Part shown: piece after piece, positions 1 to 29,328 of the stretch
Position numbering within the stretch: the stretch's first letter is position 1
Layout of the letters: each line of letters begins with the position of its first letter
NCBI GenBank assembly: GCA_964016885.1
Contig: OZ024754.1
Location: 23,126,001-23,190,000 of the forward strand
Length of the DNA stretch: 64,000 bases
Direction of reading: 5' to 3'
Origin: Eledone cirrhosa
Taxonomy: Eukaryota
Program-made: the position numbers and the translations under genes
The notes under the pieces: generated by a model
Database searches by the model: none
Seen by the model: only the letters and a program-made list of their open reading frames with translations
What the model was told of the DNA's origin: nothing

Positions 1-935
1 TACAATTTGTCTGTCTCGATATAAGTCAATAAAGACAAGCTTATATTGGCAAAAGCCGTGATTCCTGGACAAATTTAAATTTCAAAATCCAATCTTTCAA
101 ATGAAAGTAGATGAATTTGAACTTCGAAACCCAAATATGTTTCGCAACGATGGTACATGAATTGAAAAATAAAGAGAATCGAAATGGAATTGAAATAAAA
201 AGTGAAATATCCAAATCTTCTGTGCTTATCAACAATAAGCTTGTCTTTATTGACTTATATCGAGACAGACAAATTGTATTCACTTTAATTAGTTTATTTC
301 ATGCTAGCTAACTTTGTCTCTTACAATACAAACACGTTTTGTGTTCATCATATATATTAATATATAACTTGTATTTCACTGCTCAGAAATGCCTCTTTCT
401 TTGAGCTGATTAATTGTAAACGACTATGAGTTTAATCTCTAAATATAATATAGTATATTGCTCCTTAACTGTAGAGCTGATCTTTAATCCCGTATAAACG
501 TCTGTTATTTCTAGCACTGGGAATACGGGATGGCTAGTATAGTTGGCTACACTACGTGTAATCAGACCTGCAAAATTTTTGAAGGTGGAATGTACTAATT
601 TTACTGGATTCCTGTTGATAAGCACAGAAGATTTGGATATTTCACTTTTTATTTCAATTCCACTTCGATTCTCTTTATTTTTCAATTCATGTACCATCGT
701 TGCGAAACATATTTGGGTTTCGAAGTTCAAATACATCTACGGAGCGGGTTTGGATTTTGAAATTTAAATTTGTCCAGGAATCACGGCTTTTGCCAATATA
801 GGCTTGTCTTTATTGACTTATATCGAGACAGACAAATTGTATTCACTTTAATTAGTTTATTTCATGCTAGCTAACTTTGTCTCTTACAATACAAACACGT
901 TTTGTGTTTATCATATATATTAATATATAACTTGT
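1..935 (+). mobile_element. Non-coding PLE-like element (family A): inverted 5' segment plus ~563-bp tandem unit carrying a hammerhead
   Basis: 1-234 is the reverse complement of ~614-838. ~237-372 repeats directly at ~800-935. Ends in a (TA)n tract. Homologous to 20877-21916. Confidence 0.7.
607..782 (+). ncRNA. Type I hammerhead ribozyme, U3-A8 core variant, extended stem III
   Basis: Stem I GATTCCTG(607-614)/CAGGAATC(775-782); core TTGATAA(615-621); stem II GCA...TGC; GAAA(704-707); ~26-bp stem III rich in G-U pairs; GTC triplet 772-774. Confidence 0.7.
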
Positions 936-2281
936 ATATATGTATGTATGTATATATATGTATGTACGTATGTTTATATATCTATGTATATATATGTATA
1001 TATATATATGTATGTATATATACGTATATATATATGTATATATATGTATGTATGTATATATATGTATATATATATATGTCTACAGATGAAAAATGATTTA
1101 ATCTAGTAACGCTGTTGAGCAGTAGGACCAGGCTGCTGAGCGCAGTGAGTGAATGCATTGCAACTGCCGTGCGGGTTGTACATATATGGATGATCTGACG
1201 GTCAGAGAGGGGTCGCGAGGACTGCGGATTGACCTCTGGCCGGCCTGGGGATGATTATCTTTCGACATCCAATGTAGCAAGCGATGACCCAGAACTTACC
1301 AGAGATCATTGGGTCCTGAAGCAATCCTGCAATCACCGCGCCTGGTCCTATGAGTAGACTACAACCACAGAGATCATTAATTTAGAATCCGCGCTCATCA
1401 TCTATAATTTCCATTTGTGGCACCTTACGATGGGTTAATCCTCCATAATAATATGATCACCTTCAGCATAACTTAATTAAACCACTCTATAGTTAATACA
1501 CTTTATGCTTTAAACATTTTCTTGGAGGATGCGCATCACCATAGAAATTAGGGTCTATATTGTGACACATTTTAATAGCTAGGTATAGAAACCCCGGAGT
1601 TACCTCCCCGCATGCATTAACTCCCCTTAGCCACACACACACTTCCGGGTGGTATTCAATGGCGTTTCTCGAAACGTAACAGCCTCCTGTATTGAACTAA
1701 AGAACACCAGACTACGATCTCTAACTGGATTGTCAAATGCTCAATATCGGATTGTCGTGGATTATATGAGGGGCATATAATCGAAAAATACACTCCCCTG
1801 ACCATGAAAATGCCGAAGTACATGAAATACTTGACATCCCTTCGCTGTGCATCTCCAATACTTTTAACATTTTTAATGCTTGCACTATTTTTAATGCTTA
1901 TAACATTTCTCCACACACAGACTATATCAATCATATAAAGAATTTGCCACCAGATCTACCAACCTAACACTCTTGTTTACCTACCTAAGTGCCTCTACCA
2001 CACATATCTCTCTGCCACACTATATAAACAAGACGCACATACGTGCCACACATATAACATTTGCACTATATAACCGCTTATCTTCATGTTGTATCTTAAC
2101 CTGTATTTTTGATTTTTGATTGTACCTCTTAATATAAATGTAATCTCGAAGTGTGTACTGCCACTCTAAATTCTGTAATGAATGTTGACCCACAATGTTT
2201 GAATATGTATCAATGTTTGAATATGTATCGGTATGTCTCTCGGCTGAAAAGGAGGTCATATAACTGTCCATGCATTAATAA

Positions 2282-2334
2282 ATTGCTCCGAAGAATCCAA
2301 ACCTCGGTTTGGAGGAAACAGCTGTAAGCACAAT
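2282..2334 (+). ncRNA. Degenerate type I hammerhead ribozyme motif (family B)
   Basis: TGCT-CCGAAGA-A-TCCAAAC/CTCG/GTTTGGA-G-GAAA-CAGCTG-TA-AGCA. Palindromic stem III. U4C change and A.G at the base of stem II. Confidence 0.6.
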
Positions 2335-2534
2335 AATGTTTTGAACAGTTCTTTGATTCTTATATTTCATATAACTGCTCTGTAAATCATCTGATGTTTT
2401 TACATTGAGCTACTTAACTTACTGGTAATAAGGTAGTAATACATTACTGCCTACCACTATTTAGGGTGTGTGTTAAATACTTATAACTGCATAAGGTTTT
2501 GTACTTACATAACCATAAATAGTATAACTAATAC

Positions 2535-3029
2535 TATATATATGTATATATATATGTATATATATATGTATATATACATATATGTATATATATATATGTA
2601 TATATGTATATATGTATATATGTATATATATATATATATATATATATGTATCTATATATATAGATGTATATATATATATATGTATATATATATATATGTA
2701 TATATATATGTATATACATATGTATATATATATATATATATATATATATATATGTATATATATATATGTATATATATATATATGTATATATATATATGTA
2801 TATATATATATATATATATATATATATATATATATATGTATATATATATATGTGCATATATATATATATATATGTGTATATATATATATATATGTGTATA
2901 TATATATATATGTATATATATATATATATATATATATATATATATATATATATATATATATATATATATATATATATATATATATATGTATATATATATG
3001 TATGTATATATATATGTATATATATATGT
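2535..3029. repeat. (TA)n/(TATG)n microsatellite
   Basis: Read directly. Similar tracts at ~935-1078, 3990-5630, 9010-9540, 10100-11990, 12837-14035, 16993-17280, 21917-22706, 25578-26787, 29572-29680, 30623-30746. Confidence 0.97.
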
Positions 3030-3224
3030 AGATAAATCTACCAAGAGTTTACGGTAGTGTCCAATCCGTATGAAGAACTCAATGTAATCCGGATATCATG
3101 GAAAGAAGAGATGCAATGAAAAATCACTTTCGGTGAAAGATAAACGGAATACAGAGTCAAGATAAAATATTAAAAAAATAATGAATAAAACAATGAAACA
3201 GTTCCTTATATTAAACAAAAAAAG

Positions 3225-3379
3225 TTCATTATTTCACGATCGTTTCTAGGATATATATGTGTTAGAATTGGCATGCATATTCAACAGATCTATGTACAAA
3301 ATTATACAAAATTATACAAACTATCAAAATTAAATATACATACCAAACACATATATATGCCGTCTTCAGAAATAATGAA
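3225..3379 (-). ncRNA. Family C hammerhead with long stem II insert, GUG triplet (probably inactive)
   Basis: Same fold as 12623-12776, but the triplet reads GTG. Confidence 0.6.
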
Positions 3380-27867: not shown

Positions 27868-27912
27868 AACGGTGCTGATGATAGCTAACAAGCTTGAAAC
27901 TAGTACATCGTT
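27868..27912 (+). ncRNA. Type I hammerhead, array unit 1
   Basis: AACGGTG-CTGATGA-TAGCT/AACA/AGCTT-GAAA-CTAG-TA-CATCGTT. Cleavage predicted after 27905. Confidence 0.9.
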
Positions 27913-28339
27913 CCTGTGTCAGTGTTGAACAAAAAGGTGACGTGGTTGCCTTAACACCGTATGGCATAAATTCAGGCTGTTCAGTTTGTTTACAAACGAA
28001 CAAAGCGACGTTATAATAAGCGCCGCTAAACTGATACGTGCATATATGTATGTGTACCTGTATGCATATGTATGTATATATGTATATATATATATATATG
28101 TGCATGCTACTGTACGTCTGTATACATATATGTATGTACGTATACATGCATACTTACATTTAAGTAAGTGCCATACTAAGAGTGAGAAATGAAATTTCGT
28201 TTTCATTTTGTTTCAATTTATCGTTTTCGGTATGCCTGACCGATTTAACTCACTCAATATGCAAATTAGGCTGCTCAGCCGTTAATTTTCATAAGGAAAG
28301 TATATACTTTCGAACGTTCAACTATCTGGCAGATGGGTA

Positions 28340-28384
28340 AACGGTGCTGATGATAGCTAACAAGCTTGAAACTAGTACATCGTT
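28340..28384 (+). ncRNA. Type I hammerhead, array unit 2
   Basis: Identical to 27868-27912. Confidence 0.9.
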
Positions 28385-28811
28385 CCTGTGTCAGTGTTGA
28401 ACAAAAAGGTGACGTGGTTGCCTTAACACCGTATGGCATAAATTCAGGCTGTTCAGTTTGTTTACAAACGAACAAAGCGACGTTATAATAAGCGCTGCTA
28501 AACTGATACGTGCATATATGTATGTGTACCTGTATGCATATGTATGTATATATGTATATATATATATATATGTGCATGCTACTGTACGTCTGTATACATA
28601 TATGTATGTACGTATACATGCATACTTACATTTAAGTAAGTGCCATACTAAGAGTGAGAAATGAAATTTCGTTTTCATTTTGTTTCAATTTATCGTTTTC
28701 GGTATGCCTGACCGATTTAACTCACTCAATATGCAAATTAGGCTGCTCAGCCGTTAATTTTCATAAGGAAAGTATATACTTTCGAACGTTCAACTATCTG
28801 GCAGATGGGTA

Positions 28812-28856
28812 AACGGTGCTGATGATAGCTAACAAGCTTGAAACTAGTACATCGTT
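28812..28856 (+). ncRNA. Type I hammerhead, array unit 3
   Basis: Identical to 27868-27912. Confidence 0.9.
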
Positions 28857-29283
28857 CCTGTGTCAGTGTTGAACAAAAAGGTGACGTGGTTGCCTTAACA
28901 CCGTATGGCATAAATTCAGGCTGTTCAGTTTGTTTACAAACGAACAAAGCGACGTTATAATAAGCGCCGCTAAACTGATACGTGCATATATGTATGTGTA
29001 CCTGTATGCATATGTATGTATATATGTATATATATATATATATGTGCATGCTACTGTACGTCTGTATACATATATGTATGTACGTATACATGCATACTTA
29101 CATTTAAGTAAGTGCCATACTAAGAGTGAGAAATGAAATTTCGTTTTCATTTTGTTTCAATTTATCGTTTTCGGTATGCCTGACCGATTTAACTCACTCA
29201 ATATGCAAATTAGGCTGCTCAGCCGTTAATTTTCATAAGGAAAGTATATACTTTCGAACGTTCAACTATCTGGCAGATGGGTA

Positions 29284-29328
29284 AACGGTGCTGATGATAG
29301 CTAACAAGCTTGAAACTAGTACATCGTT
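29284..29328 (+). ncRNA. Type I hammerhead, array unit 4
   Basis: Identical to 27868-27912. Confidence 0.9.

What the first reader, a model, noticed from the sequence alone, without database searches (positions are those of the whole stretch)
607..29328. Hammerhead 'zoo': ~18 motifs from ~9 unrelated families in 29 kb of (TA)n-rich DNA
Seen: motifs at 607, 2282, 3225, 9736, 12623, 14257, 17472, 20978, 21529, 22779, 22852, 25491, 26898, 27271, 27868, 28340, 28812 and 29284. Core variants include CTGATGA, CTGAAGA, TTGATAA, TTGAAAA, CCGAAGA and CAGAAGA. Most host elements end in or are flanked by (TA)n. Inference: a self-reinforcing TA-microsatellite landing zone shared by autonomous PLEs and ribozyme-bearing parasites. 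Any read-through transcript on either strand would be fragmented.
Basis: partly seen in the sequence, partly recalled or inferred. Interest (0 to 1): 0.7.

Follow-up and report, generated by a model that had tools for sequence, protein, structure and literature searches.

The report
Nested Penelope retrotransposon ends carrying hammerheads
The 18 hammerhead-shaped motifs are real and sit in the tail ends of 11 retrotransposon insertions (nine families) that end in TA repeats, a crowded example of a genome-wide pattern that is likely ordinary, except that two very abundant families keep a core change predicted to weaken cleavage.

Summary
All 18 listed motifs are present and fold as type I hammerheads. 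The 10 compact ones far exceed chance (shuffle mean 0.04). They belong to nine families in 11 insertions: five Hydra-type and two Neptune-like Penelope-like elements (PLEs), plus two non-coding tandem units. All 11 end in (TA)n. Inverted arms and tandem units inflate the count. The locus is not special in kind. The nine families have 76,652 exact-pattern matches genome-wide, and coordinate-chosen tiles hold 1.2 motifs per 10 kb (window 6.3). One of 59 tiles lies in an equal 30-kb zoo (17 motifs). 'Self-reinforcing' has direct support: family C carries about 2 kb of microsatellite in its 3' UTR, and two later elements landed inside it. 'Any read-through transcript is fragmented' is not supported: most motifs are lone dimer-dependent or damaged copies, and no RNA data exist. 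PLE hammerheads, (TA)n targeting and an octopus Hydra family are published (PMC8557442). The unusual parts are U4A (16,480 matches) and U4C (5,182) cores that are family norms, and a 176-nt long-armed motif with compensatory changes.

The parts
607..782 (+). Family A long-armed type I hammerhead (U3-A8 core, 8-bp stem I, 3-bp stem II with ~80-nt loop, ~26-bp stem III, C17) in a ~550-bp non-coding unit (insertion runs from before base 1 to ~912; inverted truncated copy at 60-234)
1082..2534 (+). Family B: 3' part of a Hydra-type PLE; 92% to the full-length copy L173, whose 832-codon frame is unbroken
2284..2330 (+). Family B hammerhead, U4C core, 8-nt palindromic stem III, A17
3028..9539 (.). 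Family C insertion 1: Hydra-type PLE as two inverted arms centred near 7400 (EN frames 6821-7213 - and 7410-7817 +); the + arm resumes at 12837-14035; the 3' UTR carries a long TA/TG microsatellite
3225..3379 (-). Family C hammerhead, ~120-nt stem II, palindromic stem III, G17 (predicted non-cleavable)
9540..12836 (.). Family C insertion 2 (another subfamily), nested in a (TA)n run of insertion 1's 3' UTR; short inverted arm 9540-10043
9736..9889 (-). Family C hammerhead, U17
12623..12776 (+). Family C hammerhead, U17, identical inverted copy of 9736
14036..16994 (-). Family D: 5'-truncated, frameshifted Hydra-type PLE; its 3' end sits in the family C UTR microsatellite; a SINE-like repeat interrupts its tail at ~14125-14225
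14257..14327 (-). Family D hammerhead, canonical core, 16-bp stem II, palindromic stem III, A17
17282..20640 (-). Family E: Neptune-like PLE; RT plus GIY-YIG frame 17716-20307 with one in-frame stop
17472..17514 (-). Family E minimal hammerhead, canonical core, extra base after A9, A17
20876..21916 (+). Family A second subfamily, two tandem 551-bp units; motifs 20978-21114 and 21529-21665 have U3.G8 and C10.1.C11.1 (predicted impaired)
22708..23025 (.). Family F: short inverted pair of 3' ends of a Neptune-like PLE; hammerheads 22779-22816 (-) and 22852-22889 (+), U3-A8 core
23486..25577 (+). Family G: 3' part of a Hydra-type PLE; hammerhead 25491-25528, canonical core, C17 (the only Rfam hit shown)
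26789..27340 (.). Family H: inverted pair of 3' ends of a Hydra-type PLE; 26898-26948 (-) has the family U4A core; 27271-27321 (+) also has A6C and a broken 15.2-16.2 pair (predicted dead)
27391..29578 (+). Family I: 4.4 tandem 472-bp non-coding units (non-LTR retrozyme) with a short inverted head; hammerheads at 27868, 28340, 28812, 29284 (45 nt each, U10.1.U11.1, 6-nt palindromic stem III, A17); an inverted hammerhead-less piece lies at 23192-23461

Best explanation
The stretch is a stack of 11 insertions from seven Penelope-like retrotransposon families and two non-coding tandem families, each ending in (TA)n and carrying a hammerhead in its 3' end, which likely piled up because they share one target. 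Shown: element boundaries, Hydra-type and Neptune-like proteins, inverted arms, nesting, genome-wide abundance and cross-family clustering. Inferred: the GIY-YIG endonuclease nicks (TA)n and the RT copies the RNA from its 3' end, so even short truncated copies bring the hammerhead, and inverted arms or tandem units bring two to four. Families A and I probably borrow this machinery. Each insertion leaves (TA)n on its flanks, and family C imports about 2 kb more, so targets beget targets. The hammerheads most likely act on each element's own multimeric RNA as same-family dimers. At this locus most are passive tags, not a barrier to transcription.
For: Families link to PLE ORFs in full-length copies elsewhere: B to L172/L173, H to L176, G to L222/L223, F to L219/L221, C to L229; D and E have ORFs in the window. 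11 of 11 insertions end in (TA)n. (TA)5 lies within 300 nt downstream of the motif in H 28 of 30, B 18 of 20, F 15 of 15 and G 15 of 15 loci, against 26% of random positions; A 26 of 30 within 600 nt against 36%. Exact-pattern counts: A 704, B 5,182, C 7,566, D 10,522, E 12,705, F 10,956, G 2,415, H 16,480, I 10,122; reversed-pattern controls 0-2. Tiles hold 71 motifs in 590 kb, correlated with microsatellite content. An equal cluster lies on C6. Nesting in the family C UTR microsatellite is shown. Published: hammerheads in PLE pLTRs, inverted truncated arms, (TA)n preference of Hydra, and Hydra-1_oBim in Octopus bimaculoides (PMC8557442; PMC4209133).
Against: The window is denser than most places: 19 motifs in 30 kb against a mean of 3.6. 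Three random tiles reach 19 with P 0.0006, or 0.03 among 18 microsatellite-rich tiles (this count favours the window's own families and ignores autocorrelation). With the window's exact patterns, the best 29-kb block in C1:0-36 Mb has 4 families against 9 here (same bias). No empty-site alleles were seen, so targeting versus retention is not separated. Units A and I show no blastn match to any PLE reference tested, so their mobiliser is inferred. Clades are assigned by motifs, not by a tree with reference sequences.
Confidence: 0.85

Rival explanations
1. The cluster arises mainly from retention, not targeting: insertions fall anywhere but survive in gene-free DNA next to telomere-type arrays and an rDNA fragment.
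For: The block adjoins LINE fragments, TTAGGG-type arrays and partial rDNA. The 100 kb upstream is also about twice the mean.
Against: 3' ends abut (TA)n at the base level genome-wide. The seven satellite tiles downstream, also non-genic but TA-free, hold 0 motifs. Clustering survives local 20-300 kb shifts.
Confidence: 0.1
2. The cluster is a selected transcript shredder or insulator that cuts read-through RNA on both strands beside the rDNA and telomeric arrays.
For: Motifs lie on both strands (12 +, 6 -). The family I array could dimerise in cis, and the 607 motif folds stems I and III unaided.
Against: The - strand has no same-family pair that looks cleavable. 3225 has G17, 27271 is broken, and 20978/21529 have damaged cores. 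Cross-family stems do not match. Equal clusters occur elsewhere. The rDNA fragment points away from the cluster.
Confidence: 0.04
3. The variant motifs are chance matches in AT-rich DNA.
For: None reaches an Rfam gathering score. Several minimum-energy folds are not the hammerhead fold.
Against: 10 observed against shuffle mean 0.04. Hundreds to thousands of copies each, at fixed places in element 3' ends, with palindromic stem III and compensatory changes.
Confidence: 0.01

Closest known systems
Hydra-clade Penelope-like elements with canonical hammerheads (PMC8557442; includes Hydra-1_oBim)
   Same: C-terminal GIY-YIG, DKT, CxCX5C linker, CxxC and CxH motifs, (TA)n insertion, inverted truncated arms, 3' hammerhead. 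U10.1.U11.1 and U17 are common in their supplementary file S2.
   Different: Units here are 3.3-4.7 kb, not under 3 kb. RWK reads RWR. Families B and H have C or A at position 4, whereas all Hydra rows seen in file S2 have U4. Family C has a ~120-nt stem II and a kilobase-scale microsatellite in its UTR.
Minimal hammerheads of metazoan PLE pLTRs (PMC4209133)
   Same: Short stem I, extra base after A9, palindromic stem III, U3-A8 variant, opposite-strand pairs 100-700 bp apart, mostly solo truncated copies.
   Different: Copy numbers here are much higher (at least 76,652 exact matches, against 2,000-9,000 per genome in the parts read). No U4 variants are mentioned in the parts read.
Non-LTR retrozymes (PMC7229834; bioRxiv 10.64898/2026.07.22.740005)
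   Same: Families I and A: non-coding tandem units with one type I hammerhead each, dispersed, low GC, co-occurring with PLEs.
   Different: Units of 472 and ~550 bp are at or above the reported 150-450 bp. Family A's motif spans 136-176 nt with large insertions in stems II and III. Circular RNA was not tested.
Neptune/Nematis PLEs
   Same: Families E and F: Y(V/L)DD, DKG or DKS, CX4CxxC linker before the GIY-YIG, C and H residues of the CCHH type.
   Different: Neptune versus Nematis is not resolved. F copies show a separate upstream frame of 332 codons (L219).

Membership tests
Type I hammerhead ribozyme | Three stems around the core, open ends in stem I | tested here: met
   18 of 18 can be drawn so; family A stems covary: 94.7% of cells paired, 15 cells with double changes against 6.0 shuffled
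Type I hammerhead ribozyme | Consensus core CUGANGA (or U3-A8) plus GAAA..UH | tested here: inconclusive
   Met in 12 of 18. Not met in 2284 (U4C), 26898 (U4A), 27271 (U4A, A6C), 20978 and 21529 (U3.G8), 3225 (G17)
Type I hammerhead ribozyme | Self-cleavage after N17 | not testable with these tools
   No RNA run listed
Hydra PLE (B, C, D, G, H) | Single RT-EN frame, EN C-terminal, CxCX5C linker | tested here: met
   B and H by regex; C, D, G read from translations; unbroken 832-codon frame for B
Hydra PLE (B, C, D, G, H) | DKT in place of DKG; CxxC and CxH in EN | tested here: met
   DKT in B, H, G; CxxC-E and CxH in B, G, H, C. DKT region absent from the truncated D copy and not displayed for C
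Hydra PLE (B, C, D, G, H) | RWK motif | tested here: inconclusive
   Reads RWR in B, H and C
Hydra PLE (B, C, D, G, H) | Length under 3 kb | tested here: not met
   Hammerhead-to-hammerhead 4.2 kb (B), 3.3 kb (H), 4.6-4.8 kb (G); the paper says 'generally' short
Hydra PLE (B, C, D, G, H) | Placement in the Hydra clade on an RT tree | not tested
   No reference sequences in the tools; 307 mostly unnamed homologues
Hydra PLE (B, C, D, G, H) | (TA)n insertion and 3' hammerhead | tested here: met
Neptune/Nematis PLE (E, F) | CX2-5CxxC linker upstream of C-terminal GIY-YIG | tested here: met
Neptune/Nematis PLE (E, F) | Clade placement on an RT tree | not tested
   none
Non-LTR retrozyme (I, A) | Non-coding tandem units, each with a type I hammerhead, dispersed in the genome | tested here: met
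   I: 4.4 units, 10,122 exact motifs. A: tandem pairs at 520-555 bp, 704 matches
Non-LTR retrozyme (I, A) | Expression as linear and circular monomers | not testable with these tools
Non-LTR retrozyme (I, A) | Homology to a PLE pLTR | tested here: inconclusive
   No blastn hit to 8 loci holding B, C, F, G, H copies or to the window's D and E; the two hits were other I copies. Only seven families were tested

The most novel reading that the evidence does not exclude
Two autonomous Hydra-type lineages have amplified to thousands of copies while keeping a non-consensus U-turn (U4C in B, U4A in H) inside an otherwise conserved hammerhead fold. Either these are new natural active cores rescued by context or dimer contacts, or the fold is selected for a non-catalytic job such as RT or endonuclease recognition. 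Either result would address the open question of what PLE hammerheads do. This genome, with an estimated 200,000-360,000 motifs, would be a ready-made library, including a 176-nt long-armed retrozyme hammerhead.
Probability: 0.3. Interest if true: 0.6.

Novelty: new variant of a known kind. Interest (0 to 1): 0.38.

Why it matters
The cluster itself shows known PLE biology at high density. It adds a base-level example of microsatellite seeding: one element carries the target that later elements use. The fixed U4A and U4C cores matter more. PMC8557442 calls hammerhead function in EN+ PLEs unclear, and comprehensive mutagenesis found CUGA mutants of low activity (PMC9901934). High-copy families that keep such cores are a natural test of whether cleavage is needed for PLE retrotransposition.

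Tried and rejected
Rfam gathering scan: no hammerhead. The E-value scan was swamped by microsatellite matches to miRNA models. Pfam gave only weak RVT_1 for E and nothing for the Hydra EN pieces. A DNA search of the own genome with the 472-bp unit returned nothing because common words are skipped; pattern searches replaced it. No RNA holder listed. The scan's earlier notes had nothing. Lunse et al. on PLE hammerhead variants (PMC5785218) is not held and may already list U4 variants. A YMDD-like word near 1190 is not an RT remnant: it lies in the family B 3' UTR. 'Variant cores are local decay' was rejected for 607, 2284, 22779/22852 and 26898, because they are family norms. It was accepted for 3225 (G17; 0 G among 13 other-tile copies) and 27271. 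Cross-family dimers were rejected on stem I mismatch. Exact-pattern family counts per window were judged biased to this window and replaced by block scans. The (TA)n distance for family I is uninformative because the unit has an internal TA run. The homologue search named no PLE clade.
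Full report
Observation. All 18 listed positions hold a type I hammerhead layout. A compact descriptor (stem I at least 3 bp, stem II region at most 40 nt, stem III segment at most 10 nt) found 10 in 1-29600 and none in the rest of the window. 100 block dinucleotide shuffles gave mean 0.04 and max 1, and the reversed sequence gave 0. The other eight have long arms and had no shuffle control. Family A (607, 20978, 21529) was tested on 23 genomic copies, 21 of them from the 30 loci. There 94.7% of cells pair, two stem I pairs, pair 10.1-11.1 and one stem III pair change on both sides, and slid registers fall to 57% or less. 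The count of pairs with double changes (4) did not beat shuffles (91 of 500), and the copies are related. Family C has a 10-bp stem I, a long stem II and a palindromic stem III. In family H a diverged copy (L057) changes both sides of a stem III pair. Rfam recognises only 25488-25532, below its cut-off, among the 150 of 436 rows shown.

Hosts. The window lies at C14:23.126-23.190 Mb of a 3.0-Gb animal genome. An octopod host is my inference, from a recalled octopus SINE and a weak named homologue from Argonauta. Full-length copies fetched elsewhere tie each coding family to a PLE protein. B maps to an unbroken 832-codon frame between two hammerheads 4.2 kb apart (L172, L173). H maps to L176, G to L222/L223, C to L229 and C1 loci, and F to L219/L221. 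D and E have their frames in the window. B, C, D, G and H carry Hydra marks (YRDD, DKT, CxCX5C, CxxC/CxH; RWR for RWK). E and F carry a CX4CxxC linker of Neptune type (definitions from PMC8557442 section 11). A (~550 bp) and I (472 bp, 4.4 units) are non-coding tandem units. Inverted arms and tandems reduce 18 motifs to 11 insertions, all ending in (TA)n.

Is the density special? Exact patterns for the nine families give 76,652 matches genome-wide, a lower bound. In 59 coordinate-chosen 10-kb tiles the compact descriptor alone found 40 motifs, 0.68 per 10 kb against 3.4 in the window; shuffled tiles gave 0. Descriptor plus family homology found 71, 1.2 per 10 kb against 6.3. Extrapolated, that is about 200,000-360,000 per genome (inference). 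Counts rise with microsatellite content: rho 0.64, and 0.26 to 2.6 per tile across classes. Extending the richest tile to 30 kb (C6:39.99-40.02 Mb) gave 17 motifs in 8-9 families and 12 descriptor-only hits, more than the window's 10. Five other blocks picked for richness gave 9-14 per 30 kb. Against this reading, the window is in the upper tail (P 0.0006 against all tiles, 0.03 against 18 microsatellite-rich tiles). Exact patterns found at most 4 families per 29 kb in C1:0-36 Mb. Both tests favour the window's own families. Families co-cluster beyond local density: 38 of 211 insertions lie within 5 kb of another family against 13.6 expected, and 30 windows hold at least 3 families against 12 expected.

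Self-reinforcement. (TA)5 follows the motif within 300 nt in 28 of 30 H, 18 of 20 B, 15 of 15 F and 15 of 15 G loci, against 26% of random positions. Family C carries a TA/TG microsatellite at a fixed place in its 3' UTR: nearly absent in L066, about 0.3 kb in L060, and about 2-2.6 kb in 3 of 4 further loci, the fourth lacking the flanking UTR blocks. In the window the + arm of the first C insertion (7423-9449) resumes at 12837-13600. A second C insertion (9540-12836) splits one of its (TA)n runs, and D ends in the same UTR at 14036. So later elements used a target that an earlier one brought. Targeting by the endonuclease is inferred from these junctions and from PMC8557442, not shown.

Would transcripts be shredded? 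Probably not. PMC4209133 (parts 1-2 of 4 read) found a single minimal motif inactive and dimers weak. Dimers need matching stems I and III; cross-family stem I pairing is at most 4 bp and mostly 0-2. On the + strand the four I units could dimerise, and 607 folds stems I and III in its minimum-energy structure. B, C, F and G are single, the second A pair has U3.G8 with a C.C mismatch, and 27271 is broken. On the - strand the only same-family pair includes G17, which the recalled NUH rule excludes. No RNA run was listed, so expression is open.

Odd cores. With N at positions 3, 4, 7 and 8, 100 of 100 listed H matches have A4 and 98 of 100 listed B matches have C4. One U4 copy of H appeared in the tiles. 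B subfamilies whose frames differ by dS 0.54-0.59 (dN/dS 0.23-0.26) keep C4 and switch two facing bases of the stem III palindrome (stem II identity there is partly imposed by the search pattern). Column variation is lower in the motif than in its flanks: H 1.4% against 4.2%, B 6.1% against 14.3%, and lower in six of seven families but not in I (related copies, some pattern-picked). In four public contig sets from three organism codes no variant at 10% or more was listed in 26879-26950, while 28 were listed in 26951-27166 (one run has a single contig). U3-A8 and U10.1.U11.1 are known natural variants, and U4C is reported to lower in vitro activity yet support a viroid (PMC3088659, passages and section 8). 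Pairwise mutagenesis found CUGA mutants of low activity except the 3-8 swap (PMC9901934, passages). I found no natural U4A family in searches, but the most relevant paper (PMC5785218) was not available. Conservation could reflect protein recognition of the 3' end rather than catalysis.

What is known. PMC8557442 (passages, section 11, supplement search and part 2 of 59) lists Hydra-1_oBim with (TA)n preference and a hammerhead. PMC6765202 (passages) says PLEs tend to insert into or beside existing copies. PMC7229834 (passages) describes non-LTR retrozymes and 126,247 motifs in axolotl. bioRxiv 10.64898/2026.07.22.740005 (part 1 of 5 and passages; supplements not seen) derives retrozymes from pLTRs. 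PMC13282606 (passages) lists 31 recently active Penelope-like families in Octopus vulgaris and has no occurrence of 'hammerhead' or 'ribozyme'.

Verdict. The fixed U4A and U4C cores and the long-armed family A are new-looking variants worth a bench test. Interest 0.38.

Noticed in passing
window 37000-49900: Partial rDNA unit: GC-rich spacer repeats, the last ~200 nt of 18S (42142-42343), then a broken R2-like RT element (~42500-44350, my reading) ending at the 28S insertion-site region near 45020, then the 3' part of 28S. ITS, 5.8S and 5' 28S appear to be missing.
   Followed up: no
window 35837-37004, 49923-59184, and at least 70 kb downstream (L023-L029): TTAGGG-type arrays in both orientations plus a 26/32-bp derived satellite, at the middle of a 46.3-Mb contig: an internal telomere-type site or a scaffold join.
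   Followed up: partly
L013:8440-9727, L014:6053-6698, L021, L031, L053, L057, L072, L088, L090: At least six more hammerhead families not in the window. One has CCGACGA (U4C) in L013 but CTGATGA in L034, so U4C occurs in a second family.
   Followed up: no
window 31294-33033 (-) and 33034-34647 (+): Two broken non-LTR (LINE) fragments, one with RVT_1 and zf-RVT, one with an endonuclease-like N-terminus.
   Followed up: no
window 14115-14226, 20666-20827, 30359-30519: Three copies of a SINE-like repeat (octopus SINE, recalled); one interrupts the family D tail.
   Followed up: partly
L219:5012-6007 (-): Family F full-length copy has a separate 332-codon frame upstream of the RT-EN frame, unusual for EN+ PLEs or a sign of a frameshift or intron.
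   Followed up: no
families E, G, C genome-wide: N17 differs among copies: E A 10, U 6; G U 3, C 2, A 1; C A 9, U 4; H U 22 of 22.
   Followed up: partly
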